Shown here: positions 12,001 to 36,426 of the stretch, in pieces
How the letters are laid out: each line of letters begins with the position of its first letter
How positions within the stretch are numbered: the first letter of the stretch is position 1
NCBI GenBank assembly: GCA_000002435.2
Contig: CM018792.1
Source: Giardia intestinalis
Taxonomy: Eukaryota
Length of the DNA stretch: 64,000 nt
Reading direction: 5' to 3' (one strand)
The notes under the pieces: generated by a model
What the model saw: the letters and a program-made list of their open reading frames with translations, nothing else
Database searches by the model: none
Told to the model about the DNA's origin: nothing
Position numbers and translations under genes: made by a program

Positions 12001-15000
12001 ATAAAAAGAACGTGAGAAGATAGATATCTAGCTACTAGATGCGCTAAGTAATAAACCTCTAGGGCAAAGTATCCCCTAGCCCAGTCGGTGAGAAGAAGTG
12101 CGACAGATTTGCTACGCAGAGCAGATATTAATCGTGCTGCTTTCAGCCTCATGGTGTGCGATATGTACATGGAGTCGTATTCATTGGCAGGATTAAAGTA
12201 TGACGAAGATATACTAATAAGCTGCCCCGACAACACAATGTTAACTAAGGTCTCGCTGAGTGGCGCTGTCGGCATTCTGAAGTCGGTTATGTTTGTGTCG
12301 CAATTCAAAGCTATGGAGGAGACGGGTGTAGCGTATGCCATTTTATCATCTAAATTTGCAGTGGAAACGGTGGCTTGATTGAGTTTAGACAAGGACTCAG
12401 GGGTCCTAAAAAGCTCCATAGTAAGTGCAGCGAAGTCATCGAAAGCCACATTATCATTCCCCTTTGTGTCTCGAGGCTCCGTTCCCTCAGGTGCATCGCT
12501 GTTGGATGTTAGCAGGCTGACGGACTCAGTGCGTGCTTGTAGCCGCGCCTTTGCGTTTTTGATCAGGGTCTTCTCCTCTGCTGTGTATGTGAGATCCAGC
12601 ATAGGTAAATCTACGCGGCGATTAGCTCCATTTCCAAGCAAGGTATCGGAAGCAAGGCTATAGACTAGAGCAGATGTTTGCCGATTGGTTGCAATGGAAA
12701 GACTGACTCCATGTTCCAAACCACTGAGCACAAGGCCGCGATTCCGCCCATAAAGCAAAAGGATATCCCAACAGAGTCGAGCATCGAATTGATCTGTTAG
12801 GGATGGAATCCTTTCTGGTGGCAAGATATTGCGCGCAATGACGTGCTGGACAACAGTAAGGGCCATGATATCCAGTGTTTCTTTGTGCTCGAGAAGCCGT
12901 GCATAGAGAGCCTTCAGCATAAGAATCCTGGAGCTTGTTGCCGAAAACGTAGACCCCACCTGAAACGACCCCTGTGCCCTCAACTTCCCTGTGCCCCTAA
13001 TTAAGTCATATGTCTCTTCCTCAAGAATCCGTATCATTGAGCATATTACATTCTCGTAGCAATAGATGAACGATTCGGAGCGGCCATCACAATATAAGTA
13101 GACGATACAGGAGAGCGCATAGACAATGGCTTGATATGTGCAAAACAGAAGAGCCTCGCGGTAGCGCTCGTTGAGGAAAAGTAGTGCTGCCTTGCGATAG
13201 TTATGAACTATATGCTGAGAGTGAAGGGAGCCCTCTGTGAAGAGGTAGCAATCCTTGACGCGTGCATTCGCCTTGATAATTGTTTGGTAAAAGATGTTTT
13301 CATGGCCCTTGAATATACCGAAGAAGTTACCAGTGGAATCTATGAGATTAGAGAGAAGACTATATGACAGCTGTGGGCCGTGTTTTACGTCAGTCATGTC
13401 GCGAGGAGGCTCGTCTTCAAAGCCATCTTCCACGCTGGATTCGTCCGTGTCCACAATCAATGGAGAAAAAACAGAGTTGAATAAGGCATCAGTCAGGACG
13501 CCAGTGAGTGGAACTGTAGTTAGTTGAGAATAGAGGACCGCAAACGAAAGCGGAAGACGTGCGTAGGGTGCACAGATTCTGTACTGCTGATTGGCATAAA
13601 TAGTTGTCACCACTGGATGTGAAGAGAGGTTGCGTCTGCAGCGTGAGAGTAGTTCCTCTGCGGCCAGCACATTTGTCATAAATGACTGGACCTTTGCAAG
13701 AATATCGCGAGCAAAAAGATTCATAAATTGGAAACAGTTTGGATTGGGACTCTCATCTGTATAGAATTTCGGAACAGAAAGCCGAGTCCCGCAGCGTCTT
13801 CTGTCCAGAAGATTAAGGTTGTCCAGAAATGAGATGAACGGAAGGGTGTAAACAGATTCGTGTTCATGAACGTTTTGCTGTCCCATACTATTGAGCTTCC
13901 ACACAACTTCATGCTTTGATTTTGCAAAAATACAGATATGCTTCAAACAGCTTAATATCTCAATCGTCACTTTCTTAACATCATTTGGAGAAAGCTTGAG
14001 TAGCGTGAGGTCGGCTATCCCATCATAGATTGCGTTTGTCAGGGCAATAAGCTCTGGGAGAAGCTTTCTAACATTGCCAATAGCTATGACGAAATTTCTG
14101 CAGAAGATCAGTTTGTCCTCTATTATGCGAGCCATCTTTGCAACCTTAGGTATAACTCCTTTGTCAGCCAAAATAGCTGTCACAATGAAGATACCTTCTC
14201 GCAGAGCCTTCAATAGATAGGGGTGTGTGTTAAAGAATGGTAGTGTAATGCGTGCGGGTCCATCATAGCTACGCCTCTTCCTGATAAGGGGTGCCCTGGT
14301 TCGTTGGTTGCCCAGCAAGACCTTGGATTGGACGTGCCTTTGATCCCTGGAGATTAATATTGATTTAGCGCGTGCCTGCTTAGTAGTATCGTTCGTTTCC
14401 TTAATGGGAGTTTGTGAGCTAAGTGTTGAGTTGCCCGGTTGATGCGACAATGAAGCATCATCATCTCTGGATGCAATCGATGGTTGAGGTGCAATAATGG
14501 TGAGAGCCTTGATGCGAGGTTTTAGCAACGGAAGCGTTGTCTTTCTGTTGGTGCACCCAGCTATCCTTCCGAACGGTGTCTCAAACAGATCAAAGGCGTC
14601 CTCATCTGAAGAATCGGTGCAATGCCGGTGCTGGTCTTTGAATGCCTCCGCCAAATCGCTCTTGGTCTCACTTCCTGGTGCAGTGGCGTCTTCAATCACT
14701 TCTGTGACACCAACAGTCCTTCTAGGTAAAAGAATGCCACTTTTCTGAACTACGGGGACAAGAGAATTAGAGTCAGAGATTTCTGTTTTAATAGCCTCTG
14801 CTGCATCGGCATTGTGCTCACCAAAAGTGAAGTCAAGATCTCCAAGCACACGTGCAATCTCGTCATTTAGATGCAGATTGATCGTGTAATATGTTATAAA
14901 AATATCTATATTATGCAGCCAGTAGTATATTTCTAGCAATCTATTTTCTGCAGAATAATTTAGGAGATATTGCTTATTAATCTGGCTTGCCAGCTGATGA

Positions 15001-21965: not shown

Positions 21966-22103
21966 TAGGAAAACTTTACGCCCTGAGTGACTGAAATATA
22001 TGCTCAAACAGGATAGGGACAGGACACGAGCTGACTAGTCCAGGACGCGATGCAAAGGTCTTAAAAAAATCTCCGCTTCAGGTAGCTCGACTTGTGTACG
22101 TCC
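21966..22103. promoter_or_regulatory. Short AT-rich divergent intergenic region (putative bidirectional initiator region) between the giant gene (−) and the hypothetical gene (+)
   Basis: About 138 bp separate the two divergent start codons and include 'cttaaaaaaatctcc'. Giardia promoters are short AT-rich initiator elements right next to the ATG. Confidence 0.35.
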
Positions 22104-22808
22104 ATGGCGATACGCGAACTGGAGCTGTTTCTAAATCACTCTTTGACAGACGAGATTCGATCGCAGCTCATAACCAAGGTCACAGAGATGCTCACCATGC
22201 CCGAGCTCGTCCACTTCCGTTGCTCACTACAGTCAGACTATGGTATTGCTGCACCTATAGGTCTCTACGACATTCTTCGGAGGATTCCCCTGTTTGCTGA
22301 CCATGCCTTTATGACCATCGGAGAGGTCTTTAGTGGCCTTTTTGCTGTAGCAGACTCCTTTCATGAGGTCATTACAGAGATTCAACCGTCTCTCGAGCAA
22401 TACGAAGGCCATATTTTGTGGCTCCTAACAGACACTTATAGTAGCCTCATGCACCAATCCCGTAGCTTCAAAGATTTGGGGATTCCCGTGAAGCGGATTA
22501 AGATGATTCTCAAAACAGCTTATAAGTTTACCCCAGCGCTTCCCAAGACCATTCATGACTTGGATGCCGATACAATGTCCCAGGTTCCGTCCCATGATGA
22601 GCTTAACAAACTACGCGAATACGTTGACCAGCTCCCTAACGCACAAGCCCGAGCGTTAGTGTTTGGTAAACTCTTAAGAGAGATAGGGAGGCGCCCCGAG
22701 GAAATAATCCTCAATGGGAACCAATTAAATCTAGAACTCACTGACCTGCCCTCCTTCGCATTCTGGGTCCTACTGGATGCTGCACAAGCGTATGCAACTC
22801 CATCATAG
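22104..22808 (+). CDS. Hypothetical protein (~234 aa)
   Basis: The track ORF 22092–22808 begins at an alternative TTG. The first in-frame ATG (MAIRELELFLNHSLTDEIRS...) is at 22104. It is transcribed divergently from the giant gene across a ~140-bp AT-rich spacer. I recognise no domain. Confidence 0.5.
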   Translation: MAIRELELFLNHSLTDEIRSQLITKVTEMLTMPELVHFRCSLQSDYGIAAPIGLYDILRRIPLFADHAFMTIGEVFSGLFAVADSFHEVITEIQPSLEQYEGHILWLLTDTYSSLMHQSRSFKDLGIPVKRIKMILKTAYKFTPALPKTIHDLDADTMSQVPSHDELNKLREYVDQLPNAQARALVFGKLLREIGRRPEEIILNGNQLNLELTDLPSFAFWVLLDAAQAYATPS

Positions 22809-24254
22809 CAATCGTGGCCGACCTTGTGTTTGGTGAAGGTATTAGGTGGACTTAAGCTCGCTAGCTAAATGGTCACTGAATTCTCTGAGCAAAAGGGCAC
22901 GAGGTTCTGTAAATGCCGTTTTCTCTAGCTGGCTTTCAAATAAAGTTATCTCATCTATAGCCTCCTGGTGAGAAAGGCTGCGCGGGTCCTCTGAGAAGGT
23001 TATTTCCATTTTAAAAATAGATCTATTCTATCTCCTTACTTATCAATGCGTATTTGCACAGATAAAGTGTACGTATGTACGTGATTAATATCTGAATGTC
23101 CAGAGTAGATAATTACTTAACCTCGAATGTACGTTTTCACCTCATCATGAACGTGGTGCGTGGAAGAACGACACTAATACCCTTCATGACTCAGACTATT
23201 TACTAGAGGGTTCTATGCCGTTTCAGATGAGACAGCATCATTCGCTGAGCCAGGTGCTTGGATCTGTACGTTTACTCTCTCCGTTTCACCGAGGTGGGGT
23301 TGCCATCTGCCACCTGAGCAATCCCCTCCATGCGAGCCACCGCCACTCTGGGTAGGCGGGTCCCTCCCGCCCTTGCACCAGCTGAGATCCAGAGTCCAGA
23401 GTCTAGAAACCAAAATCTGAGAATATGAGCTCAGATGTCAAGCGATTCCGGTGGGAGAAGAAGAAGTTTTCCACTTTCCCTCTCGGGAGTCTCTGTCGCT
23501 CTTCGCGGTGCCTTCCGAGGCTCTCCCATCTTCTGGCCTTTCGGGTCAGCTGTCGTCTGATATCTAGTGAGCACCCGTTGTCTCGGGCTTTTCCGTCAGC
23601 CACAGCAGTCTGGCCTCAGAAGCAGCTGACCCTGGCCATGTACTCCAGAGTCGCCTTGGTGCTGGTACTCTATCACGAAGATCGCATACGCCACGAACCT
23701 CAGGTGTCGATCCCTAGGTCCCTGAGGTGCTCCCTCGTCTTCTCGTGGAGGGTGCCGTCAGTCCCGAGTATGATCGGGAGGGTGCTCCCCGTATGCCTCT
23801 ATCTTAGAGTGGTAGTACGAGCTCATGGACGCCGGCTGGACCACTCCTATGTCGACGGCCTGGCTGGTGTCTGGAAAGAAGAGGTCCGGCTCTGGTTCTC
23901 CTTGTCATGGTCAACCCATACCTTCTGCTCGTGGATCACAGTGCACCTCTTCTTCGACATTATGTGATCAGTCATCCAACACGAGATCATGTCGACGCTC
24001 ACCCTATGCAGTGCGTCTGGCTCAGTGACGATGTGGTCTGCATCTCCTTGCATCGCACAGCACACTTGGAGGTGATGCTTTGGTCTGCCGAGACAGTCGG
24101 TCCAAGCCCGCATCTTTTCGAGAGGCGGCGGAAGGCGTCGTCCGGAAGCATCAGGAACGATCCGAAGACATGATTGATGTACGAGCCTGTGCTCACCGTT
24201 AGGTCGTCTCGCTCAGCAACCGGTTCGCGATGCTCCGTCGTCACGTCGAAGGTG

Positions 24255-24815
24255 TTAAATGCATCGCGCAGTTGCTTGTGATAGACGCCCGGCAGGTGGA
24301 CTCCCAGGCCGCCACTCTTCTTCGGTGCCGCCAGGAACGATCCACCTCTTCGGGTCAGAGCCGAGTATCCCTCCAAGGGCCTCTCCGACCTGCCTGTCGA
24401 AGGATTCATATTGTTCAACTGGTGAGTCCATCTCGACGAGCGGTGCGTAGCCGGCCATCGGAATGGCGTTGATCCTGGCCAGCGTCAGCTTGGCGTGGTG
24501 GGTGATCGGCGCGTCCATCACCAGCTTCAAGCTCTCTGCTGCCTTCTCTATCGCCCTGGGGGCTATGGACTGCTTCTCCTTCGAGACCGGGGCCCCCGGG
24601 AAGGAGACCTCCTGTCCTCTTTGGGTGCTCTTGCACTTGTCAATGTTGACTGTCAAACCATATCGTTTCGCCAGGGCTGTCGCCTCTGTGATTATCCCCG
24701 TCGCGTCGCTGTCGTTGGCATGGAAGCTGAGTGCGTCGTCAGTGTAGGCAATGAGTAGGGTATCTCTCCTTCGGCTCCTGGTGAGCAGGTTCTGTCCCCC
24801 GCAGCACAGAAGCAT
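24255..24815 (-). pseudogene. Reverse transcriptase fragment (domains ~5–7 only; 5'-truncated and frame-disrupted)
   Basis: Motifs AYTDD (YxDD catalytic box), LTVNIDKCK and GAPVSKEK. There is no upstream RT domain 0–4 and no intact long ORF. Confidence 0.55.
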
Positions 24816-25280
24816 GCTCAGGGCCCTGAGGGACCGAGTCCAGGGGTGCAGCGTGGCGCAATTAGAGGAAGGCCTCGATGTAGTTCTCAGGATGAAGGGT
24901 ACACTCGCCTGGCCGAGGCCGTCTGCTGTTGGGGCTCTCGTTATGTCGAGCGAGGCCGCTGTGTTCCGTCAATCTGCATCTCCATGTATGCCATGCGGAC
25001 ACCACCCATGTGCGTTCAGGTGGAGTGCATCTGCTCGGTCTCTAGAAAGGCCAGTGTCTGGGTCTCCAGGGGGCTCAGCAGTATCTGTGAAACACAGCCA
25101 TGATCGTCCACTGATTGTGCTTGTCCTGTCTCATCATTGGGAAGAGGGTAGAACAAGAGTTCTTCCGCTCTCCAGACCTGGTTGACATCTGATCTTCGGG
25201 CTCTGGACGTGGATCTCAGGCGATGTATGGACAGGAGGTACCCGCTTGCCTAAGGCGGTGGCTCGCATGAGGGGATCATT
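24400..25280. repeat. Inverted repeat copy 1 (retroelement-derived); the 24770–25280 core is >99% identical to 29911–30421
   Basis: Track ORFs 24751–25185 (+) and 30006–30434 (−) encode the same 142–144 aa with a single F/L difference. ORFs 24846–25103 (+) and 30088–30345 (−) encode identical 85-aa products. The coordinate mapping is x ↔ 55191−x. A lower-identity (~85%) extension runs 24400–24770 ↔ 30421–30790, for example RQGCRLCDYPRRVAVVGMEAEC versus RQACRLCDCPHRVTVVNIDTEW. Confidence 0.85.
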
Positions 25281-25465
25281 CCAGGAAGATGGAACCGTTA
25301 CATTATATCTACTGCTGTTCAGCTGTGATATTACATTAGAACTTGATTCTATTAATTTCGATAAAGTAACATTAGACACCGAGAAGGAAGCAATGTACAC
25401 AAAAACTGACACACATCCACAAACAGCACGAAAGCGTAGTGAAATGGTCGCTATTCACTCTAGGA

Positions 25466-26497
25466 TCATTTCGAGAGGATATCTACTATCTCTTTGTGAC
25501 CCTTCTTCTTAGCGATGTCAAGGGCAGTAGTACGGGGCGGGTAACCACAGTAGTCATAGACTGTCATCAGCTGCCTCTCCCCTAAGAGTAACTCAACACA
25601 CTCTATGTGGTCACCCCACACCGCATTCATAAGAGCTGTCCATCCTTTATCATTCTTCATGCCACTTTCTCTTCCTAACAGAAGCCTGACACACTCTGGA
25701 TGGCCATTACGTGCTGCCCACATGAGAGCAGTTTGACCGGTATTATTCTCCATGCCACTCTCTTTTTTGAGCAGCTCTACAACCCCTCTGTGCCCTTGCG
25801 CTGCCGCATACATAAGCGCTGTCCATCCACCAGCATCCTGGCCCCTCCTCATGTGAAGGTTGTTTCTGACTGCACCGATATCACCACGGTAAGCGGCGTA
25901 TATGAGTCCTGTCCACCCTGAGACACTGCTCTCATACCCCACCAGAAGCTCAACGCACCTAGGATAGTCTACCAGGGGGTCATTGGAACGGCCACTCCGT
26001 GCCGCGAATACGAGAGCGGTCCAACCGCCTACTTTCGCACCTCCTTCGTAACCCGCTAGCAGTTCTACTATTTCTGCGTATCCATGTGCCGCAGCCATCA
26101 TCAGCGCGGTTCCCCCCTTGTACATGGTCATCTCATCTATCTTGAAGCCTCCGGACGCCTTCTGTCCTTCCTGAAGGGGAGCAAGCGCCTTCACAGTACC
26201 TACATCATTTCTGTCAACAGCTCTCATGAGGGCAGTAAATCCGTTTTTGTCGGTGGGGTCGAGGAGCTCAACGATGTTCTTGTGTCCTGCCCTCGCAGCT
26301 ATGATCAGCGCTGTATCCCCCTCGCTGTTCTTCTTGTCTTTGTCTGAGAGATGCTTCTCGGCTGCCTCGAAGTCTCCGTCCGCAGCAGCGTGCATGAGAG
26401 GCGTCCAGGACAAATCCCTTGTGAACTGAGGTCCTGCATCGACATCCCCTTGACCAGAACTGCCTACTCGCGACCCTCCGCGTTCGTTGCGTGCCAT
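25466..26497 (-). CDS. Ankyrin-repeat protein, Giardia 'Protein 21.1' family (343 aa)
   Basis: ATG confirmed (M-A-R). Repeated ankyrin modules of the 21.1 type: ...GDTALIIAARAGHKNIVELL..., ...GFTALMRAVDRNDVGTVKAL..., ...GGTALMMAAAHGYAEIVELL..., ...GWTALMYAAAQGHRGVVELL..., ...GQTALMWAARNGHPECVRLL..., ...GWTALMNAVWGDHIECVELL.... Confidence 0.85.
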   Translation of the reverse strand: MARNERGGSRVGSSGQGDVDAGPQFTRDLSWTPLMHAAADGDFEAAEKHLSDKDKKNSEGDTALIIAARAGHKNIVELLDPTDKNGFTALMRAVDRNDVGTVKALAPLQEGQKASGGFKIDEMTMYKGGTALMMAAAHGYAEIVELLAGYEGGAKVGGWTALVFAARSGRSNDPLVDYPRCVELLVGYESSVSGWTGLIYAAYRGDIGAVRNNLHMRRGQDAGGWTALMYAAAQGHRGVVELLKKESGMENNTGQTALMWAARNGHPECVRLLLGRESGMKNDKGWTALMNAVWGDHIECVELLLGERQLMTVYDYCGYPPRTTALDIAKKKGHKEIVDILSK

Positions 26498-27469
26498 TCC
26501 TTATTTTTCTTGCCGAAGAAAGGGGCTAAAACACCTGTAATTCACACTGTAATCTACAGCTCAGTCAAATGATGTCCATACATGTATTCCTATATAACTT
26601 TGGCCCTTGCTGATTCTTTCTGTTGCATATAACTGTATGTAGTGTTATGCGTCCATGCCCGGCCTCTGCTCCTTCGTGCTGCGGCTAGCTGGGATCTTGT
26701 GAAGTACTAGGCTAGAGCCATTAACAGCGTGGAACACTGGTGGGCTTTCATCTCACCCGCAAAGTGCAGTGCGCTATGCTCTGTCTGTGAGCACTCATGC
26801 TTGACTACCCGAATGGGCTGCGTGATGTAGACTACTCTGAGACTGTAACCAAGGATTCGTGCTCAGTGCTAATTCATCTGCCGCTGTCGTTGGACCTCGT
26901 GGCAGCCATGATCTCAGATGCCTTGTGCTTACATCTGTAAGTCTTCTATGGTTGAAGAAAGTGTCTGTACGAACAGCGGGGGGCTCTCCCATGGGTTGCA
27001 GCTATGCCCATTGCAGGACCTTCAGGTCTCCTTGGACGTAGCCTGCCCAAGCTCAGTGGACTGCTGTGCAGAGAGTGTAGTCGCTCTTCGCCTGTTACGC
27101 TTTCTCCTGAAGAAGGCACGTTGCGGGAGCACTTCAAGCCCTACACTAGTGGAAAGCGCCATCGGCAGAACGCAGTCCACTGAATTCTCACGAAAGAAGC
27201 CGCTTCCACAGGATGCCCGTGGAGAGCGGCGCAGACGGCCCCCGCTCTATCTACACATGCAAGCTGGCCCCTTCGGCACACACGTTCTGCACCTTGTACG
27301 AGGCAGAGGGGTCCTGATGGGATAAAGTACCGACGCGTGTTACGGTGTGAGTGGGACGAATGACGAAGAACCAAAAAACGGTCTTACACATGCTAACAGC
27401 GTTGAACAGTGTACACTGTGGTCTCTATAGACCCACAAAGCCATCACAAAAAACGAGGAAACGACCCTG

Positions 27470-29148
27470 ATGAGCCAGGACGAGGGCAAAGCGGCAGAAG
27501 AATCCTTTGGCCGCTGGTTTTCTGCTGCACAGCGCGGAGATTGCGCCTATCTAAAACAGCATATAGCGACCATGCGGCGAGCCGTGGACTCCCGAGGAAT
27601 GACTGCGCTGATGCATGCAGCGGATGCAGGTCACGCATCGTATGTCCAAGCACTGGTTAGTGAAGCGTGCGAAATCAGCTCTGAGGGGTTCAAGGCTCTT
27701 AGGTACGCAATCCGCGCGTCCTCGATTGATGCTGCAGGAGTCTTGCTTCCGTATGAGGGCTCTGTTGAGACCTCTTCCGGTCTTTCTCCACTCCTTATGT
27801 TATTGAAGCGCAAGCAGGACACCATTGCACATATGTGCTTTGAGCATATGGATTCGTCTAAAGATCTGGCTCAAGGGAAGGATGGGGAGTTAGAAAGATA
27901 TTAATGTTTGCTACTGAGCTGAACGACTACGGGCTCCTGCAGGATGCCATCCGTCGCTGTCATAAGCTGCCTGCGGGCGATATAGCTGAAGTACTTTCTC
28001 TCGAAACAGCTACCGGCCCAACCTTTTGCATAACGTACCTCATGGGTGTGCTTGACGGATTCGCACACCGGGATGACTCAAGGCGCCAACACGCTTCTCC
28101 CACACTGATCACAACGACTCCAGATGTTGTAAAGGGTGGCCCCAAAGTAGATGAGAACGGCAACACTCTCTTGATGAGGGCAGTCATGACCTTCAACTAT
28201 AAGAAGATGCCCGACTATTCTTCTATCCTGTGCAGAAGCGTGAACAGGGAGGGGAAGACTGCGCTCATGATCGCGGCAGAAATAGGCAATGAGTCCGCTG
28301 CGGCAATACTCAGGAAATACGAGGCGAAGATCCAAGATCCTGCTGGAATGACGGCCCTGATGTTCGCCGTGAACAAGGGAAATTTAAAGCTCGTCCAGAC
28401 GCTGTTAAAGTATGAGGTTGGTCTGAAGGACGTTGCAGGCCGGACGGCGCTGATGCATGCAGTACTATCAAACAAGCAGCCTATTATTCAGGAACTTATC
28501 AAGTGTGAGACTAGCAACCAAGACTTTCAGGGCAAAACAGCCCTTATCTATGCCGTAGAGCAGAACCTTTATCAAGCCTGCAAGGCGCCCATTCCTTATG
28601 AAGCGGGCTTGGTGGACCATAGGGGTCTGCGTGCAATAGATTATGCCAAGCTCTTCGACAATATGGAGCTGATAGATCTTTTAGAGGACTCAGAAGGAAT
28701 TTCACGAAACTCTCTTCAGCAGATCCTGCTTCGTCACGGGTGGCTAGCGCCACGCATATCCAGGCCCAGCCCCAGTCGTAGTAGCCCTAAGCCGGCTCTC
28801 TCTGGTTCCACTGTGAGCAAGCCCACTACTTCAACACAAGATAAGCAGCACACTACTGTAGATGTGAATAAAGAAGGCTCACTGCCTGAAGACGCGAAGG
28901 TATTTTCCACCGATCTTATCTCTGCTGTCCACGCCAGTAGGTACTATGACATCGGTGTTCTAGCCCCACATCTTGCCAACATGAGAGATCACCACAACCT
29001 CACGGCACTCCACTACGCTATCTACCAGAATAAACGAGTGGCAGTACGCATCTTGCTTCCTCACGAATACGAATCCCTTAATGGGTTTACTATTCCACCA
29101 GAGACGCGACCAGAGATAGTTGAGATGATAAACCTCTATAGGAAGTGA
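27470..29148 (+). pseudogene. Ankyrin-repeat (Protein 21.1-like) gene split into two ORFs by a −1/+2 frameshift at ~27901–27905 (ORF1 27470–27904, ORF2 27904–29148); possibly a pseudogene or an assembly indel
   Basis: ORF1 (144 aa) ends ...KDLAQGKDGELERY* and ORF2 (414 aa) starts MFATELNDYG... on the overlapping string TAATG. Both halves carry ankyrin repeats. ORF1: ...GMTALMHAADAGHASYVQAL.... ORF2: ...GNTLLMRAVMTFNYKKM..., ...GKTALMIAAEIGNESAAAIL..., ...GMTALMFAVNKGNLKLVQTLL..., ...GRTALMHAVLSNKQPIIQELI..., ...GKTALIYAVEQ.... A single-nucleotide indel would fuse them into one ~560-aa protein. Confidence 0.6.
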
Positions 29149-29208
29149 AGCTCTCATATAAGTACCCATTCAATCTGTATAGGCAGGCCTGTGAGGTATC
29201 TATGGAAC

Positions 29209-29940
29209 TCATTTCTTTTTACCGCCACGTGAGTTGTTCTTGAAGAAGATTATGTCCCCATCTTCAACAACGTAGTTCTTCCCTTCGGTGCGGACCTTCC
29301 CGGCTGCCTTGGCCTCTGCTTCGGACCCTAACCTCTTGAGATCCTTATAAGTGTAAACCTCTGCACATATAAAATAGTCGCGGAAGTCGCTGTGGATAAC
29401 CGCGCCTGCGTCCGGTGCCTTGGTGTATTTTCTGACCGTCCAGCATCTAACTTCGTCTGCACCACATGTGAAGAAATGACAGAGGTTCAATGCCTTATAT
29501 CCCGTCTTGATGATCTTATCGAGAGCCAACTCCACAACGGAACCGTCAGGGAGCTTGTATTTTGAGGGGAGCTCTCTGAGGTAAGCATTTCTAGCCTCTG
29601 CAGAGCCTAGCTCCAAAAGTGTCGCCTCTAGCTTGGCGCTGTACGGCACTATATGCGCAGTCTCGTTTTTGGCCGTTATCCGTTCCTGTATCTTAGTAAG
29701 GAACTTATTCTTCTTCTTACTATAATCTGCCTCACTCATGTTCAAAAGGTAGACCACAGGCTTGCAACTAAGCAACTGCAGCTCGTTGAGAATCTCCACC
29801 TCACGGGACGACCAGCCCTGGGCAAAGAGGTCCTTCTTTTCCTTGAGTAGTCCCTCTATTTTTAGGTTTACTTTCCGGTTCACCGGGGTAGGGTTGTCAC
29901 CTGCTGCTTGGATGATCCCCTCATGCGAGCCACCGCCTTA
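29209..29940 (-). pseudogene. OLA1: OLA1/YchF (Obg-like ATPase 1) fragment: only the C-terminal coiled-coil and TGS half. The N-terminal G domain is missing, and the frame breaks exactly where inverted-repeat copy 2 begins
   Basis: Track ORF 29209–29883 (224 aa; its listed start is an alternative GTG, and the first ATG is internal at ...LLNMSEADY). It aligns with human OLA1 residues ~170–396: PVVYLLNMSEADYSKKKNKFLTKIQE ≈ [61 protein letters not shown] ≈ [60 protein letters not shown] ≈ [25 protein letters not shown]. Upstream, the frame stays open only to a stop at ~29938–29940, inside the repeat, and there is no GxPNVGKST P-loop. Minus-strand translation of 30790–31146 shows no OLA1 N-terminus. 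Confidence 0.7.
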
Positions 29941-30790
29941 GGCAAGCGGGTACCTCCTGTCCATACATCGCCTGAGATCCACGTCCAGAGCCCGAAGATC
30001 AGATGTCAACCAGGTCTGGAGAGCGGAAGAACTCTTGTTCTACCCTCTTCCCAATGATGAGACAGGACAAGCACAATCAGTGGACGATCATGGCTGTGTT
30101 TCACAGATACTGCTGAGCCCCCTGGAGACCCAGACACTGGCCTTTCTAGAGACCGAGCAGATGCACTCCACCTGAACGCACATGGGTGGTGTCCGCATGG
30201 CATACATGGAGATGCAGATTGACGGAACACAGCGGCCTCGCTCGACATAACGAGAGCCCCAACAGCAGACGGCCTCGGCCAGGCGAGTGTACCCTTCATC
30301 CTGAGAACTACATCGAGGCCTTCCTCTAATTGCGCCACGCTGCACCCCTGGACTCGGTCCCTCAGGGCCCTGAGCATGCTTCTGTGCTGCGGGGGACAGA
30401 GCCTGCTCACCAGGAACTGAAGGAGATACTCCACTCAGTGTCTATATTGACGACAGTGACGCGATGGGGACAGTCACAGAGGCGACAGGCCTGGCGAAGC
30501 AACATGGCTTGACGGTCAGCACTGGGTGTAGGAGCACTGAGGGGCAGGAGGCCTCCTTCCTGGCCGGTCTCAAGGATCCCCCAAGACAACCGAAGGCCGA
30601 AGCCAGTGATGGCACCAATCACTCGCCAAGCTGGCCGGGATGGACCCACACGTGACCCATGTGAATCCCTCGACAGGCAAGTCGGGATCCTTGGGGTGCT
30701 TGGCTGGCAGAGGCGGACTGATCCTGCCTGCACCGAAGAGTGGTGGCGGCTCGCATGAGAAATCACTCAGATAACAGATGAGAGTAAATC
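29911..30790. repeat. Inverted repeat copy 2: a partial retroelement copy holding the TIR-side end plus an RT fragment (YIDD box ~30440–30460, + strand), truncated at ~30790
   Basis: See copy 1. On the + strand ~30407–30655 I read ...SVYIDDSDAMGTVTEATGLAKQHGLTVSTGCRSTEGQEASF..., which parallels ...IAYTDDALSF...TEATALAKRYGLTVNIDKCKSTQRGQEVSF... in copy 1. Confidence 0.8.
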
Positions 30791-31128
30791 AGGGGACTTT
30801 GTTGAAAAAGAAACGGCGACTCGAACTTCACCCACCACGAAGGAAGACCAAGGATAGGCGCCACCGGTAGACCAGAGAGTCTACAAGAAGGCCTGAATTC
30901 AAGGTAGATCGATGTGTACACCCAGACAGAGCATATCCTCATGGAGCAGCCGAGGAGCGCCCAGATTCTGAATGTGTCACTAAAGAGGACTCTCTCGTCA
31001 TGTTATTCGCAACCAACCCTCATCTTTGGATGACCAGGACTTAAATGAAAGCTTACCCGTGAGATCCTTGAATGCACTTGCGGGCAGGCCCCAGCAACAC
31101 ATCTACATGAGCTACATACGGTGACGCG

Positions 31129-31135
31129 TTTACTA
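31129..31135 (-). promoter_or_regulatory. Poly(A) signal AGTAAAC (Giardia consensus AGTRAAY) 12 nt downstream of the VSP stop codon
   Basis: The + strand reads ...cgcgtttactaccta..., whose reverse complement is TAG GTA GTAAACG. Position taken from track ORF 31121–31324. Confidence 0.6.
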
Positions 31136-31146
31136 CCTAAGTACAT

Positions 31147-33000
31147 CTACGCCTTGCCCCTGCAGATGAACCACCAGCAGAGGAATCCGACGAGGCCTCC
31201 TACAACAACAATCACAGCGACGGAGATCCCCGCGATGGCCCCCGTGGAAAGGCCACTCCTGTTGGTGCTGTCTCCTCCAGTATCTCCGCCGGTGCCATCG
31301 TCAGCCTTTTGTTGCGTTACGTAACAGGTGACAGGGCCATTGCCACCAGCTGGCGGGGCACAGCTTATGCAGTTTTCTACACCAGTTATTGCATTAGAGC
31401 TAGCCTTATCACTATCCGTGCATTTGAAGCATTTATCACCGGCACCTTTGTAATACCCTGCTAAGCAATCTGTGCAGGTTTCCTTACTACCCGCACACTT
31501 CACACATCCTTCAGTACACGCCGGACATTTTCCTCCAGCTGGGCTTTGTCCATTGGCACACGTTTGGCATTGTCCCTTATTCTGTGCAGCCGTACACACA
31601 GAGCTACCAGGAAGCTTCTGTGTGTTGTAGCATCCGCCCGATAACAGAGCGTAGTTTGCCCCACACTCAGTGCATTTCCCGCCACTTGCCTTACATCCGG
31701 AGGCATCTCTCGCTGTTGCAGGTATGGATGTGCAGACGCCGTCGACTGGGGCGTACCCCTCCTCGCACTGATCGCAGTACTTCGAGCCTCCGACGTTCAG
31801 TGAGCAGCCGTCGGCCTTGCAGTGGGCCATAAAGTCTCCCGTGCACTCCTTTATACAGGTACCCTTAGCATTCGTCTCATCACGCTTCAACACGTATCCC
31901 GGATAGCAGGCCGTGCACGACGTTTCTGCGTTAGTACTACAGCTTGCGCACGATTCGTGGCACAGATTACAAACGTTAGCGTCAGTGCGAGTTCCCGCGG
32001 GACAGGCATCTAAGCACGCGTCTCCCAAGGGGCTCAGCTTCTTTTCTGATCCGCAAGCTTCGCAGACGTTGTCCTTACTGCACTTTTCGCAATGCTCCAT
32101 GGGACACACAAAGCAGCCTGTTCCGGCTTCATTGGGTTTTTTAGTACCCTCGCAGGTAAGACACTTAACGGAATCTCCAGTCTTTGAGCACGTCTTGCAG
32201 TCGGCCACACCGCCCTCACTGACACTACCGCAGAGATGGCACTTTTTGTCCTCTGCTATTGGGAAGTGTGTGTTACCACATCCGTTTTCGTCAACACACG
32301 TGCCTGTCCCGTCGCTATTGGCCCCTTCTTTGAAGTATTGCTTACCAGTATCCTTGCAGGAGGTGCATTTATCCTCACCGTTGCCGGTGCACGTTCTACA
32401 ATCTGCATGGCACTGCTGACAGCTTGTAGTGCCATAGTATCCGTCCACACAGCTTTTACATGTGGCCGTCTGTTCTGCACTGCTTTGTCCGGGAGTTTTC
32501 GGGGCGTCGCACGTCGCACAGTTCTGAACCCCCTTATTATGATCCACACCGGCCGTGTTGTTGCATGCAATACAGGACTCCTTCGTTTTATCAGCGTCAG
32601 ATGCAGGATTCTTGAAGTACCCGTCGTGGCAAGCTATGCATATTCCATCCTTATCAGCCGTGGCAGTTCTATCGTTGCACACAAGGAGCCCGATATCGCT
32701 TCCCATCTCGTAGCACCCTCCCCTGTGCAGGAAGAAGCCGGCTTTACAAGATGTACATGTGCCATCATTCTTTGTTGTACATGCTCCTTCAGCATCCTCG
32801 CCTGTAGTTATGCACTTTCCATTGACAAGATGCTCTGCTGCTGTCGAGCACTGGGAGCAGAAGTTTGAGCCCCCAATCCAGACGTCGCACTTTCCTGTTG
32901 CGCACTGTCCTGTTTGCGGGTCACTGCTAGCCTCTGTGCATGTCGTTGCTGCCCATACCACTTGCAGGATGGCGATTCCGAAGATGATTTTCTCGAACAT
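31147..33000 (-). CDS. VSP: Variant-specific surface protein (VSP): signal peptide, CXXC-rich ectodomain, transmembrane helix and the invariant CRGKA C-terminus
   Basis: The track ORF 31147–33021 starts at an alternative GTG. The first ATG (MFEKIIFGIAILQVVWAATT..., a signal peptide) is at ~32998–33000. It has dozens of CxxC motifs, a GGCY motif, and the C-terminus ...[31 protein letters not shown], which is diagnostic of Giardia VSPs. Stop TAG at 31147–31149. Confidence 0.9.
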   Translation of the reverse strand: MFEKIIFGIAILQVVWAATTCTEASSDPQTGQCATGKCDVWIGGSNFCSQCSTAAEHLVNGKCITTGEDAEGACTTKNDGTCTSCKAGFFLHRGGCYEMGSDIGLLVCNDRTATADKDGICIACHDGYFKNPASDADKTKESCIACNNTAGVDHNKGVQNCATCDAPKTPGQSSAEQTATCKSCVDGYYGTTSCQQCHADCRTCTGNGEDKCTSCKDTGKQYFKEGANSDGTGTCVDENGCGNTHFPIAEDKKCHLCGSVSEGGVADCKTCSKTGDSVKCLTCEGTKKPNEAGTGCFVCPMEHCEKCSKDNVCEACGSEKKLSPLGDACLDACPAGTRTDANVCNLCHESCASCSTNAETSCTACYPGYVLKRDETNAKGTCIKECTGDFMAHCKADGCSLNVGGSKYCDQCEEGYAPVDGVCTSIPATARDASGCKASGGKCTECGANYALLSGGCYNTQKLPGSSVCTAAQNKGQCQTCANGQSPAGGKCPACTEGCVKCAGSKETCTDCLAGYYKGAGDKCFKCTDSDKASSNAITGVENCISCAPPAGGNGPVTCYVTQQKADDGTGGDTGGDSTNRSGLSTGAIAGISVAVIVVVGGLVGFLCWWFICRGKA

Positions 33001-33943
33001 TGCCGGCAGCCCATAGAGCACGCAACACCAGGCGACGCTGCCACGTGGTAAGTGAGGATAATGTGCACCCTACGAGGATGCCCCGGTGTAGCGGATCTCT
33101 GGTGTCCTAGTGGCTTCTCCTATGTGTGGCGTCTCTAGGGACCAAGGAGAGAATGTGCATTATGGCATCTCAAGAGCGGCCCCTCGCACATCACCGGTAC
33201 CTATGACAGTAATCATCACTACGTGGATAGGTCCACTCAAGTAATGAATGCACCCACTGCTATGAAACTGGACCGATGCTCCTCACAAGAGCTGCCTGGA
33301 TAAAGGAGAGAGCCACCGACAAGCCTCAGCTGTGCTCTGTCCAGGACCACCACACAGGGGCGAGAAGTCGGCTGGCCGTCACTTTTTAGCAATGACACCA
33401 ACCACTGCCTCTGCTTGGTCCTCCTGGGATGCCTAGAGCGCTCACACATGGATTCTTGTGTGTCCTCCACGGCTATCTGGGCATAGTCGCCACGGTCTCT
33501 CGTAGTTCTGTTCCCTACTGTTACAGGCCACATGCTAGCCGCCTACACAGTACTAGAGCAGCTGTAGACAAGACCGAGGCGGATCGATGAACCAGTGTGT
33601 CTGGCTTCCCCTCTGGCTGTATCTTCTATTCAGTTCAACACTCTCAGATAGCATCCTTTACATAACAGATTTTGTTAAGTACATGGATCCATTCTTAACC
33701 TTCCACTGTTACTACGGACGACCGAGCTGTTTGGCTGGCGTATGCCTCTGTAGACGGTGTTATTCTAAACTATACAATTTACAGGGGTAGGCAGAGAGTA
33801 TGAGGACTGAAGAGAAGGGAACTCAGATAGAGTCCTAGCTCAGCGGGATAGTGTCATCGTGGTCACGTTATCAATGAGTGGCAGGCTTGCACATATAGAA
33901 ACCCTTTGGTACATATTGTGCTACGCTTTATGAAAAACGCTAA
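33001..33943. promoter_or_regulatory. ~0.94-kb divergent intergenic region between the VSP (−) and the high-cysteine membrane protein (+) start codons; the initiator contexts are AT-rich (…gaaaaacgctaaATG for the HCMP gene)
   Basis: There is no ORF of 100 aa or more. It is flanked by head-to-head members of the two cysteine-rich surface-protein families. Its length is unusual against 16–150-bp spacers elsewhere in the window. Confidence 0.35.
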
Positions 33944-36426
33944 ATGCTCGGCCTTTTACCACTGGCTCTCCTTGCTTCTATTTGCAAAAGTTCAAGAGAT
34001 GCGTATTACAACAAGTTCGGCGTGGGATGTGAGGGCAAGCAGGAGAATTGCGCCCAGGATAGGTGCTTTTCCATAGGGTCATGGACGTCATGCACCCAAT
34101 GTATCCCTGGGTATGTTCCAATAGATGGAAAATGCCAGAATTACTCCGGAGCTAGCTCCCCTCCATGTACTCCAGATGATCCCAACTCACCGACTCGCTG
34201 CATCAGATGCACATCAACAGAAAATGTCTTTCTCTTTTATGGCAGCTGCTATACAATTACAACAGCACAGAACAGAAATCTGGGCAATTTCTTGTGCTCT
34301 GAAGCATCGAATGGTGTGTGCACTAAATGCTTTGAAAGTAAGCTTGAAAGATATGTCTTTACCAATCCAGACACAAGTGCAGCTGAGAAGTGCATCCTGT
34401 GCTCCGATACGGTCGGGTTCAATGGGTACAAAGGCGCCTCTGGGTGCCTAGACTGCCTTCCTCCCATCACTGATAAAATAGGCATCGCTCTGTGTGTTAA
34501 GTGTCACTATACTACCGAGGATAGACATTTTTATCCGATTGACTATCAATGCCAAGCCAAAGGGCCTCACAATTGCGTCAATGGTTACTGCACGTCATGC
34601 TACAAGACACATTTGTTCTATGAGTATGGATGTTATAGTCGGCACAGTTCGACTGGATTTGCCATATGCGCGGGGGCGAATCAGTACGAGCTAGATAATG
34701 TTACTATCTGCAAAGAGTGCGCAAATGCATCATACGCACCCAGGAACGGAGCATGCATTCTTATCAAGGAAAATCCATCTATTGAAGAGATCGCTTTTAA
34801 GTGCACAAAGGATCCAACTAAAGGACTATGCACGGCCTGCTCTAGCTCCGCGCCATCTTTCCTCTTCTACGGCGGCTGCTATGACGAGGACGCCCGTATT
34901 AGCTCAAAACTCTGTTCAAGAATTGGATCAAATGCCTGTGAACAATGGAATAGTGCTTTCAAATGGATCTTCTCTAAGAATGGCGATAACAATAAAAATG
35001 GATATCTGTGTGGCGATATTGCAAACGGTGGCATCTCTGGCTGTGCTACGTGTAACTATGCCAGCGGTGCTGTCACTTGCACGCGGTGCTCGGCAGGGTG
35101 CCTAGGAGTGGACGGGAAGTCCTGCAGTGAAGGCTGCAGCGGAGACACTCGGGGAGTGTGCACGAAGGTAACAGAGGGGAGCGAGTCAACTGAAGTGTCG
35201 TGTCGATGCGTCTGCAGGCCGACGTTCTACAACAGCTCCGGAACGTGTACACCATGTACGGACTCGTGCGCTGTCTGCAAGGATGGCACACTAACCGGCT
35301 GTCAGCAGTGCAGCCCCGGCAAGATCCTGAGCTTCTCGATCGTCTCTAGCGAGAGTGCAGACTGTGTCGATCAGTGTTCTGTTGGTAGTGAGTGTGCAGA
35401 GTGCGGCATCACCATCGACGGCAGCAGGTACTGCACGCGCTGCAAGGACGCAAGCACGTATCCGTTCAATGGCGTGTGTATTCCAAACACACAAAGAGAC
35501 GCGTACTGTACCAGCACGGCAAATGGTGCTTGCACTGCCTGCTCAGAAGCGGCCTTCCTGATGAACGGGGGCTGCTACACAACGGAGCACTATCCAGGAA
35601 GCACTATCTGTGATAAGCAGTCAAACGGAAAGTGTGAGAAGACCAAGGAGGGGTACGGGATATCGGCCGATGGAAAGCTGCTGGAGTGCGATCCGACATG
35701 TCTGGCGTGCACTGCCCCTGGCCCCGGCCGCTGCACCAGGTGCCCCTTTGGAAAGCTCCTGAAGAAGGTCTCGGGTGCCGCCACCGGGAGCTGCGTCGGC
35801 CTTAATGCCTGTGTAGACGGGTACTATGCAGACGGAGACGCGTGCCTGCCCTGCGCCACTCCGGGGTGCAAGACCTGCGGACATGCCTCTTTCTGCACAG
35901 AGTGCGCGGGGGAGCTCTTCGTGAGCCTGGACGGGCGGTCGTGCCTGGAGGAGTGCACCGGGGACAAGGTGGTGGGAGAGGTGTCCAGCGGCGTGCAGAG
36001 GTGCTGGTGTGAGCGGGGCTTCCTACCGGCACTGGACAGATCCGGGTGTGTGCTCCCAACCGAGTGTCCCCCTGACATGTCGTGGTGTGCTGCCTGCGAT
36101 ACGTCGGGTAAGTGTCTCTCGTGTGCCGCCTCGAATCATAACATCCAGACAGATCAGCGGACGTGTGCAGAGGGGTGCGGCGCCAGGGCCTCATCGAACC
36201 AGGGGCTGTGCATGTGCGAGCTTGACGCGGTCCTCAGAAGGGCATCTGTGTTTCGACCAAGGAGCTGGCCAAGAAGAGAACGGCGGCGATCGCAGGAGGG
36301 ACGGTGGCCGGGGTCATTGTGATTGGGAGCCTGGTTGGCTTCCTTTGCTGGTGGTTTCTCTACCGGGGCAAGCGAATTGGTGCCTCTTTGAGTACTGTGG
36401 GACTCGTTCAATCCAAGTCTATGTAA
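33944..36426 (+). CDS. High-cysteine membrane protein (HCMP/VSP-like, ≥792 aa of ectodomain) with a +1 frameshift at ~36222–36240 that separates the ectodomain from its transmembrane and short cytoplasmic tail
   Basis: Track ORF 33944–36322 has ATG confirmed, a signal peptide [16 protein letters not shown], many CxxC motifs and GGCY/GSCY motifs. The main frame ends ...[41 protein letters not shown]. The +1 frame from ~36226 reads (stop)[66 protein letters not shown] (stop ~36424–36426). That is the family's canonical membrane anchor (…GFLCWWF…) with a non-CRGKA tail, as is typical of HCMPs. Confidence 0.75.

What the first reader, a model, noticed from the sequence alone, without database searches (positions are those of the whole stretch)
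23220..25280. Dead reverse-transcriptase-bearing element with ~150-bp terminal inverted repeats (GilD/Genie-like remnant)
This GC-rich island has no intact gene but clear RT domain 5–7 fragments (AYTDD box) on the minus strand. Its left ~140 bp (23320–23460) are an inverted, ~75%-identical copy of its right ~140 bp (25140–25280). Giardia's known non-LTR elements, GilM and GilT, are telomeric tandem arrays, and only the 'dead' GilD family is chromosome-internal. An RT remnant bounded by inverted termini fits GilD. If it is not GilD, it is an undescribed TIR-bounded derivative, because an RT-encoding unit with TIRs is an unusual architecture.
Basis: partly seen in the sequence, partly recalled or inferred. 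Interest (0 to 1): 0.6.

Follow-up and report, generated by a model that had tools for sequence, protein, structure and literature searches.

The report
Dead Giardia GilD retrotransposon copy

Summary
Both parts of the observation hold. The window is Giardia lamblia WB: ORF 24255-24815(-) is 100% identical to XP_001708398.1, "Reverse transcriptase/endonuclease, putative". A GC-rich 2.03-kb unit (23268-~25300, sense on the minus strand) carries frameshifted RT domains 1-7, then a CCHC and restriction-like endonuclease region. It is bounded by inverted repeats (alignment score about 20 SD above shuffles).

Every GilD/Genie 2 feature I could test is met:
- R2-like RT/EN, 28-35% identical to the other Giardia RT/EN proteins.
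- No intact ORF.
- Chromosome-internal, with VSP genes nearby.
- A microhomology-mediated deletion in a second copy (29865-30789).
- Terminal inverted repeats.

Giardia P15 (assemblage E) has copies at the same loci, so both insertions predate the split between assemblages A and E. The 5' arms cluster together and so do the 3' arms, so the repeat is a family trait, not a local accident.

Side findings:
- A 489-bp tract is 100% identical between the two inverted WB copies, most likely through gene conversion.
- P15 has a 4.2-kb, nearly intact relative with inverted-repeat ends and a 16-bp target duplication, at a site that is empty in WB.

Verdict: already known. I could not compare against the published GilD/Genie 2 consensus. 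The published "inverted repeats up to 172 bp" is my recollection, not verified here.

The parts
23268..23460 (-). 3' inverted-repeat arm of copy 1. It includes the terminal motif ACGTTTACTCTC (23268-23279 on the + strand) and the core CATGCGAGCCACCGCC (23329-23344).
   Evidence: The terminus is fixed by the point where similarity to a non-orthologous P15 copy (L008) ends.
23461..23585 (-). Short untranslated spacer between the end of the endonuclease region and the 3' arm.
   Evidence: It lies between the tblastn end at 23586 and the inner end of the repeat. It is collinear with the P15 copies.
23586..24167 (-). Degraded CCHC zinc knuckle and restriction-like endonuclease (PD...D) region.
   Evidence: tblastn with the P15 200-aa ORF, E 4.6e-20. 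The intact homologue P0014 aligns to R2 protein 9nl2_A residues 941-1018. Frame-2 translation reads ...PDLFFPDTSQAVDIGV....
24185..24463 (-). RT thumb / FLAAPK..GGLGVHLPG region, frameshifted relative to the palm.
   Evidence: tblastn in frame -1. Alignment with P0008/P0014.
24255..24815 (-). Longest surviving ORF (186 aa). It covers RT domains 4-7 with the YTDD box and is annotated in WB as XP_001708398.1.
   Evidence: tblastn with the P15 618-aa ORF gives 62% identity over 24821-24339.
24823..25165 (-). Degraded RT domains 1-3 in shifting frames (LPND..G, SLDIT).
   Evidence: DNA collinearity with the P15 4.2-kb element: score 56 against shuffles of 25 +/- 2.8.
25140..25300 (-). 5' inverted-repeat arm of copy 1, with the outermost ~24 nt missing. 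Core CATGCGAGCCACCGCC lies at 25254-25269 on the minus strand.
24791..25279 (-). 489-bp tract that is 100% identical to 29912-30400 of copy 2. It is a putative gene-conversion tract.
   Evidence: Beyond the tract, identity falls to 76% with many indels.
29865..30789 (+). Copy 2, a heavily deleted sister element in the opposite orientation. 5' arm 29866-30060; RT remnants 30104-30562; deletion junction at 30737-30749; remnant of the 3' arm up to GAGAGTAAAT at 30780-30789.
   Evidence: The orthologous P15 copies are full 2.0-kb units.

Best explanation
Region 23268-~25300 is an old, inactivated copy of the Giardia non-LTR retrotransposon family GilD (= Genie 2). Its sense strand is the minus strand.

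Shown here:
- It encodes only the decayed remains of an R2-like polyprotein: RT domains 1-7, thumb, CCHC knuckle and restriction-like endonuclease.
- It lacks the N-terminal zinc-finger and RT-0 part that a nearly intact 4.2-kb relative in Giardia P15 still has.
- It is bounded by ~190-nt inverted repeats.
- The same 2-kb unit sits at the orthologous locus in P15 (only its 5' 1.3 kb was retrieved there) and, full-length, at the copy-2 locus in P15.
- The 5' and 3' arms had already diverged from each other before the copies spread.

Inferred:
- When active, the family moved by target-primed reverse transcription. The endonuclease nicks the target and the RT primes on the 3' tail (...GGTGAA..GTAAAC). 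The P15 relative has a 16-bp target duplication that fits this.
- The 2-kb form is an internal-deletion derivative that kept both termini and was spread either in trans or by segmental duplication.

Today the copy most likely does nothing in cis. Its remaining effects are as a recombination substrate, as shown by the 489-bp perfectly identical tract shared with the inverted copy 2 some 4.6 kb away. It may also be a source of double-stranded RNA.
For: - Identity: 100% match to the WB 'Reverse transcriptase/endonuclease' protein.
- Pfam: RVT_1 scores 25 bits for the window ORF and 73-75 bits for the intact relatives P0014 and P0007.
- R2 structures: they match both the RT part and the C-terminal endonuclease part of P0014.
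- Other Giardia RT/EN proteins: collinear, 31-35% identity to P0064 and P0057. Direct tblastn of these onto the window gives E 1e-9 to 1e-17.
- Decay: frameshifts and stops.
- Inverted repeat: z of about 20. The core motif is present only at the four expected arms.
- Age: P15 has orthologous copies with the same flanks.
- Arms: they cluster by type, not by copy, and the 3' arms share insertions.
- Copy 2: its ~970-bp deletion is joined at the 10-nt repeat AGAGTGGCGG, which occurs exactly twice in copy 1. This matches the published GilD hallmark (PMC2861651).
- Context: two VSP-family genes lie 6-9 kb away, at 31147-33021 and 33944-36322.
- Literature: RT remnants and high-GC RT islands at synteny breaks are reported for WB and P15 (PMC7000408; PMC3091692).
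Against: - I could not align the sequence to the deposited GilD or Genie 2 consensus. No tool holds them, and the two defining papers are not in the held library.
- No target-site duplication is detectable around either WB copy.
- The window ORF alone is below Pfam's gathering score.
- The origin of the 5' arm (5' UTR or RT-0 coding) could not be settled.
- The two telomeric families were not positively identified among my comparison proteins. They are only annotated as Giardia reverse transcriptases.
Confidence: 0.9

Rival explanations
1. An undescribed element class. It would be either a DNA transposon, or a DIRS- or Penelope-like element, whose inverted ends are used by a transposase or recombinase and which merely carries an RT.
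For: Inverted termini are atypical for non-LTR elements. They are conserved at both ends of every complete copy, and a deletion derivative kept both ends.
Against: - No transposase, tyrosine recombinase or GIY-YIG domain was found. All ORFs of at least 40 aa on both strands gave only RVT_1.
- The nearly intact P15 relative encodes zinc fingers, RT, CCHC and a PD..D endonuclease, which is the R2-like layout.
- It has a 16-bp target duplication and an asymmetric 24-nt 3' tail outside the repeat, as expected for target-primed reverse transcription.
- From memory, inverted repeats are already described for Genie 2.
Confidence: 0.04
2. The inverted repeat was made locally at this locus, for example by two converging insertions followed by a deletion, or by palindrome-forming repair. 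On this reading it is not a property of the element.
For: The left arm read on the + strand looks like the 5' end of a second element that points towards copy 1.
Against: - The same two arms, with the same arm-specific indels, bound the full copies at a different locus in P15 (L008, L009). They also bound the deleted copy 2 in WB.
- 5' versus 3' arm identity is 59-77% whether the arms belong to one copy or to different copies.
- A separate subfamily in P15 also has inverted ends, 82 nt at 98%.
Confidence: 0.03
3. The family retains a function. One version is that the 489-bp perfect inverted repeats of copies 1 and 2 make the 4.6-kb segment between them invertible. Another is that the hairpin-forming ends feed the RNAi pathway.
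For: - 489 bp at 100% identity flank 25280-29911 in inverted orientation, while the rest of the copies is 76% identical.
- Giardia makes small RNAs from retroposons (PMC2875222).
Against: - No data on orientation isomers or small RNAs were available.
- In P15 the corresponding tracts are only 93% alike, so the perfect identity is WB-specific and recent, as expected from a chance conversion event.
- An assembly or polishing artefact is not excluded.
Confidence: 0.1

Closest known systems
GilD (Arkhipova and Morrison 2001, PNAS 98:14497) = Genie 2 (Burke, Malik, Rich and Eickbush 2002, Mol Biol Evol 19:619), the 'dead' non-LTR retrotransposon family of Giardia lamblia
   Same: - Same host strain.
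- Defective RT/endonuclease ORF.
- Chromosome-internal position near VSP genes.
- Microhomology-mediated internal deletions (PMC2861651).
- Inverted repeats at the ends. The published size of up to 172 bp is my recollection. Here the right arm is about 170 nt once the 21-nt indel is allowed for.
   Different: Nothing found that conflicts. This copy is a 2.0-kb form that lacks the N-terminal third of the coding region. Whether that equals the published consensus could not be checked.
GilM / GilT (= Genie 1 / 1A), the telomeric Giardia non-LTR elements
   Same: Same overall protein layout (RT, CCHC, restriction-like endonuclease). Giardia RT/EN proteins P0064 and P0057, which probably belong to these families, are collinear and 28-35% identical.
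   Different: GilM and GilT are potentially active elements of 5.5-6 kb in head-to-tail telomeric arrays (PMC7000408; PMC5537684). This copy is solitary, internal, dead and bounded by inverted repeats.
R2 and related RLE-bearing non-LTR retrotransposons (R2Bm, R2Tg; PDB 9nl2, 9nl3, 9dou, 8gh6)
   Same: RT palm and fingers plus a C-terminal CCHC and PD-(D/E)xK endonuclease. P0014 matches R2 chains in both regions. The P15 relative has N-terminal C2H2 zinc fingers.
   Different: R2 is rDNA-specific and has no terminal inverted repeats. Identity is low (E about 2e-4).
Hexamita inflata 'Reverse transcriptase/endonuclease' proteins
   Same: They are the nearest non-Giardia relatives found by the profile search (E about 1e-7). 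tblastn of P0050 onto the window gives E 9e-17.
   Different: They come from a different genus, and many copies have long ORFs of up to 1212 aa. I did not examine their ends.

Membership tests
GilD / Genie 2 | Resident in the Giardia lamblia (WB) nuclear genome. | tested here: met
   The 186-aa ORF is 100% identical to XP_001708398.1 of G. lamblia ATCC 50803. Neighbouring genes are VSPs and ankyrin 'protein 21.1'-type genes.
GilD / Genie 2 | Non-LTR RT with a C-terminal CCHC and restriction-like endonuclease, related to but distinct from the telomeric Giardia families. | tested here: met
   Identity to other Giardia RT/EN proteins is 28-35%, against 62% to the P15 GilD-like ORF.
GilD / Genie 2 | All copies defective (frameshifts, stops, deletions). 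| tested here: met
   Copy 1 has at least four frame changes and several stops. Copy 2 has lost more than half of its length.
GilD / Genie 2 | Chromosome-internal and dispersed, next to VSP genes, not in telomeric head-to-tail arrays. | tested here: met
   Single copies flanked by unique genes. VSP genes lie at 31147-33021 and 33944-36322. No tandem array in 1-32000. The only other similarity within the window is copy 2.
GilD / Genie 2 | Internal deletions bounded by microhomology (as summarised in PMC2861651). | tested here: met
   The deletion junction of copy 2 lies in AGAGTGGCGG. That 10-mer is present exactly twice in copy 1, at 24309-24318 and 23340-23349.
GilD / Genie 2 | Inverted repeats (up to 172 bp) in all copies (my recollection of Burke et al. 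2002; not retrievable here). | tested here: met
   Both WB copies and both complete P15 copies have both arms.
GilD / Genie 2 | Nucleotide identity to the deposited GilD / Genie 2 consensus sequences. | not testable with these tools
   No collection offered holds Giardia reference repeats. The papers are not held.
RLE-type non-LTR retrotransposon (R2-like) mobilised by target-primed reverse transcription | Target-site duplication flanking the insertion. | tested here: not met
   No direct repeat of 8 nt or more at consistent positions around either WB copy. A 16-bp duplication is seen only for the 4.2-kb P15 relative.
TIR DNA transposon / DIRS / Penelope-like element | A transposase, tyrosine recombinase or GIY-YIG nuclease ORF. 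| tested here: not met
   Pfam scans of the ORFs on both strands gave only RVT_1. The ORFs of the nearly intact P15 element show only zinc-finger, RT and CCHC/PD..D motifs.

The most novel reading that the evidence does not exclude
GilD/Genie 2 may be a non-LTR (R2-like) retrotransposon family in which both inverted termini are needed for mobility. Three observations would then fit together:
- An internally deleted 2-kb derivative that kept both ends was propagated non-autonomously to several loci.
- The longer 4.2-kb subfamily was still transposing in the assemblage E lineage after it split from assemblage A. It has 82-nt ends at 98% identity and a 16-bp target duplication, at a site that is empty in WB.
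- The family would therefore be 'dead' in WB only.

The inverted ends could give sense and antisense transcripts the same RT-recognised 3' end, or let the cDNA form a panhandle for second-strand priming.
Probability: 0.25. Interest if true: 0.5.

Novelty: already known. Interest (0 to 1): 0.22.

Why it matters
For this window it matters little. The feature is a correctly recognised fossil of a retrotransposon family described in 2001-2002 and already annotated as an RT/endonuclease remnant.

Its wider value is as a worked example in three respects:
- It shows that an R2-like retrotransposon family can carry ancestral terminal inverted repeats.
- It shows such fossils acting as recombination substrates in the VSP- and ankyrin-rich, synteny-breaking parts of Giardia chromosomes.
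- The cross-assemblage comparison gives a minimum age for both WB insertions (before the split of assemblages A and E). It also points to a much younger, nearly intact relative in P15 that could be used to study how the inverted ends work.

Tried and rejected
- **Defining papers.** I tried to read Arkhipova and Morrison 2001 and Burke et al. 2002 by DOI, PMID and PMC id. Neither is held, and Ullu et al. 2005 is not held either. Five text searches for Genie 2 with inverted repeats found nothing. The '172 bp' statement therefore stays a recollection.
- **Exact-protein look-ups.** The window's own RT ORF and the neighbouring ankyrin ORF are not on record. I could not fetch other WB assemblies to look for the alternative orientation of 25280-29911.
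- **Metagenome scan.** A scan for the 21-nt repeat core gave one hit, a chance match in a 72.5% GC bacterial contig.
- **Origin of the 5' arm.** I asked whether it derives from RT domain 0 coding. Its best local matches to the P15 4.2-kb element fall at the collinear place (14334-14413), but the scores equal the shuffle mean. The match to L003 is also at background. This is inconclusive.
- **Repeat sequences across subfamilies.** The repeats of the 2-kb and 4.2-kb forms are not alignable apart from the ~20-nt terminal motif GTTTACT..TTCACCGG.
- **PDB profile search.** A search with a 4-sequence alignment found nothing. Only the single sequence P0014 reached R2 chains.
- **Target-site duplications.** None were found around the WB copies.
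- **Rfam.** No family matched in 22000-31500 at E <= 0.1.
- **Apparent gene desert.** I briefly suspected that 1-22000 was a 22-kb gene desert. It is one giant minus-strand ORF that runs off the window.
- **Truncated YchF gene.** I first read the truncated YchF gene next to copy 2 as having been cut by the insertion in WB. P15 has the same truncated form twice, so the truncation is old.
Full report
**What is at the coordinates**

The stretch 23220-25280 lies in a GC-rich island. GC is 0.577 for 23268-25300, against 0.452 in the left flank and 0.49 for the window.

On the minus strand the longest ORF (24255-24815, 186 aa) reads ...LLIAYTDDALSFHANDSDATGIITEATALAKRYGLTVNIDKCKS.... It matches Pfam RVT_1 positions 142-202 of 205 at E 1.5e-5, 25.2 bits, which is below the 29.6-bit gathering score. 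It is 100% identical to XP_001708398.1, 'Reverse transcriptase/endonuclease, putative [Giardia lamblia ATCC 50803]'. The window is therefore Giardia lamblia WB, and this ORF has already been annotated as an RT remnant.

**The coding remains**

Homologues recovered from gut metagenomes and from Giardia P15 show what the intact protein looks like. P0014 has 415 aa and scores 73 bits on RVT_1. It matches solved R2 retrotransposon proteins in two places: the RT (residues 18-136 against 553-693 of 9nl3_A) and the C-terminal endonuclease region (326-403 against 941-1018 of 9nl2_A).

A nearly intact P15 element encodes C2H2 zinc fingers, RT domains 0-7, a thumb, a CCHC knuckle (CVLCGARMHEDHIQNC) and a PD...D nuclease core. 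Mapping that protein onto the window gives these pieces:
- aa 297-340 at 25087-24959, frame -1
- aa 373-393 at 24885-24823, frame -2
- aa 400-562 at 24821-24339, frame -3, 62% identity
- aa 503-614 at 24463-24185, frame -1
- the CCHC/endonuclease ORF at 24167-23586

So the copy keeps RT domain 1 through to the end of the polyprotein, but broken by at least four frame changes and several stops. It lacks the first ~270 residues and the upstream zinc-finger ORF.

Other Giardia RT/EN proteins (P0064, 883 aa; P0057, 582 aa) are collinear with P0014 at 31-35% identity through the RT, and for P0064 on into the CCHC and nuclease part. They hit the window directly at E 1e-9 to 1e-17, as does a Hexamita inflata RT/EN protein.

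**The inverted repeat**

It is real:
- The repeat finder lists three collinear inverted pairs.
- MAFFT gives 74% identity over about 190 columns with one 21-nt indel.
- A local alignment scores 70 (64 of 76 aligned bases identical, 23321-23401 against 25276-25201). Dinucleotide shuffles give 18.0 +/- 2.6, and the best random genomic pair scores 53.
- The core CATGCGAGCCRCCRCC occurs four times in 64 kb where 0.13 matches are expected. The four sites are the two arms of this copy and the two arms of a second copy.

The 3' terminus is at 23268 (ACGTTTACTCTC). That is where similarity to a non-orthologous P15 copy stops. The 5' arm of this copy runs to about 25300 and lacks the outermost ~24 nt that copy 2 and its P15 orthologues keep. 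No target-site duplication can be seen.

**A second copy and a deletion junction**

Copy 2 lies at 29865-30789 on the plus strand, so it is inverted relative to copy 1. It has both arm cores but has lost most of its interior.

One deletion of about 970 bp joins the RT region to the 3' arm exactly at the 10-mer AGAGTGGCGG. That 10-mer occurs just twice in copy 1, at the two places brought together in copy 2. Microhomology-mediated deletion is the property that Arkhipova's group reported as distinguishing GilD from the two telomeric families. They also noted that GilD sits next to VSP genes (PMC2861651). Here VSP-family genes lie at 31147-33021 and 33944-36322.

**Age, and whether the repeat is a family trait**

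Two P15 (assemblage E) contigs are collinear with window 23268-30800.
- L009 carries an orthologue of copy 1 with the same flank, of which only the 5' 1.3 kb was retrieved.
- L008 and L009 both carry full 2.0-kb units, with both arms, at the position of WB copy 2 next to the same truncated YchF gene.
- A third P15 locus (L001) has the same 5' end in unrelated flanks.

So both WB insertions predate the split of assemblages A and E, and copy 2 has lost about 1.1 kb in the WB lineage since then.

I aligned nine arms. The 5' arms are 74-93% alike and the 3' arms 81-87% alike. A 5' arm and a 3' arm are only 59-77% alike, whether they come from one copy or from different copies. All 3' arms share a CCA insertion and a ~28-nt insertion. 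The two arms had therefore already diverged in the ancestor of all these copies. The repeat belongs to the element and was not produced at this locus.

**Classification**

Every GilD/Genie 2 feature that I could test is met; the membership table lists them. What I could not do is align the sequence to the deposited consensus or read the two defining papers. The statement that all Genie 2 copies contain inverted repeats of up to 172 bp is my recollection of the abstract of Burke et al. 2002. The arm length found here, about 170-190 nt, agrees with it.

Alternatives fail as follows:
- A TIR DNA transposon or a DIRS- or Penelope-like element is excluded because no other catalytic ORF is present.
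- A locally made palindrome is excluded by the arm phylogeny.
- Chance is excluded by the statistics.

**How it works (inference)**

When active, the family presumably moved by target-primed reverse transcription, as its R2-like nuclease and RT imply. The one young insertion I found supports this (see the side observations).

The 2-kb form kept both termini while losing the N-terminal third of the ORF, and it is present at three or more unrelated loci. This suggests it was spread as a deletion derivative, either in trans or by segmental duplication. The present copy is most likely inert.

**Side observations**

1. *Identical tract.* Positions 24791-25279 and 29912-30400 are 100% identical over 489 bp in inverted orientation. 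The remainder of the two copies is 76% identical with many gaps, and the P15 counterparts are 93% alike in that tract. Recent gene conversion is the simplest reading; an assembly artefact is not excluded. The tract shares a 20-nt deletion with P15 copy L001, but not with the P15 orthologues. This hints at exchange among dispersed copies. These repeats flank a 4.6-kb segment with two ankyrin genes and the YchF fragment, which could in principle invert.
2. *Younger relative in P15.* P15 has an extra 4.2-kb element (L009 12131-16340; L008 12713-16891) with 82-nt inverted ends at 98% identity and ORFs broken by only a few frameshifts. Its RT part is 67.7% identical at nucleotide level to copy 1. 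It sits where WB has an uninterrupted sequence. The target GGGCATCCTGTGGAAG (window 27203-27218) is present at the left junction in L008 and at the right junction in L009, which makes a 16-bp target duplication. However, each junction comes from a different paralogue. Outside the right repeat lies a 24-nt tail, TCCGGTGAAGAAGTAAACCTTCTT, which resembles the 3' terminus of the 2-kb form. This indicates transposition in the assemblage E lineage after the split from A. It also shows that inverted ends are shared by both subfamilies.
3. *P15 genome paper.* It notes that RT and 'GTP-binding protein' genes cluster at synteny breaks and that RT genes form high-GC islands (PMC3091692). This fits the YchF-RT pairing seen here.

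**Verdict**

The feature is an already known kind of element, so interest is low. The P15 element and the conversion tract are the only parts that might merit a specialist's follow-up.

Noticed in passing
window 29865-30789 (+): A second, heavily deleted copy of the same element in inverted orientation, with both arm cores. One ~970-bp deletion is joined at the 10-nt microhomology AGAGTGGCGG (junction at 30737-30749).
   Followed up: yes
window 24791-25279 and 29912-30400: A 489-bp tract is 100% identical between the two inverted copies, while the rest is about 76% identical with many indels. It looks like recent gene conversion, and it flanks a potentially invertible 4.6-kb segment (25280-29911). 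The tract shares a 20-nt deletion with P15 copy L001 but not with the P15 orthologues.
   Followed up: partly
L009 12131-16340 and L008 12713-16891 (Giardia P15); empty site at window 27203-27218: P15 has a ~4.2-kb, nearly intact GilD-like element (zinc fingers, a 618-aa RT ORF and a 200-aa CCHC/nuclease ORF). It has 82-nt inverted ends at 98% identity, a 24-nt 3' tail and a 16-bp target duplication (GGGCATCCTGTGGAAG). WB has an uninterrupted site at that position. This implies transposition after the split of assemblages A and E.
   Followed up: partly
window 29209-29883 (-): A YchF/OLA1-like gene that lacks the whole N-terminal G domain (only PF06071 remains). It abuts the 5' terminus of copy 2, and its upstream-most start codon lies inside the repeat arm. 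P15 has the same truncated form twice (236 and 195 aa, 'GTP-binding protein'), each next to a GilD copy. No full-length Giardia YchF appeared among the top hits.
   Followed up: partly
window 3-22034 (-): One uninterrupted minus-strand reading frame of more than 7,300 codons. The first Met is at 21965, and the frame runs off the left end of the window. It is a giant gene of unknown function, and the ORF listing does not show it because it is cut by the window edge.
   Followed up: partly
window 31147-33021 (-) and 33944-36322 (+): Two divergently oriented VSP-family genes lie immediately to the right of copy 2. Xu et al. 2020 report RT remnants between several divergent duplicated VSP pairs in WB. 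Here the RT remnant lies beside the pair, not between the two genes.
   Followed up: no
L003 (ENA ERZ4567601, human gut metagenome, 3080 bp); L004, L006, L007: Human-gut metagenome contigs carry GilD-like elements that are 67-79% identical to the WB copy. One has a 415-aa open RT-CCHC-nuclease ORF at 40x coverage. They presumably come from other Giardia assemblages and form at least one further subfamily with a shared downstream region.
   Followed up: partly
L009 9820-9880 (P15 orthologue of copy 2, 5' arm): The outermost ~25 nt of the 5' arm (GTTTACTTTCCGTTTCAC) is tandemly duplicated in this P15 copy.
   Followed up: no
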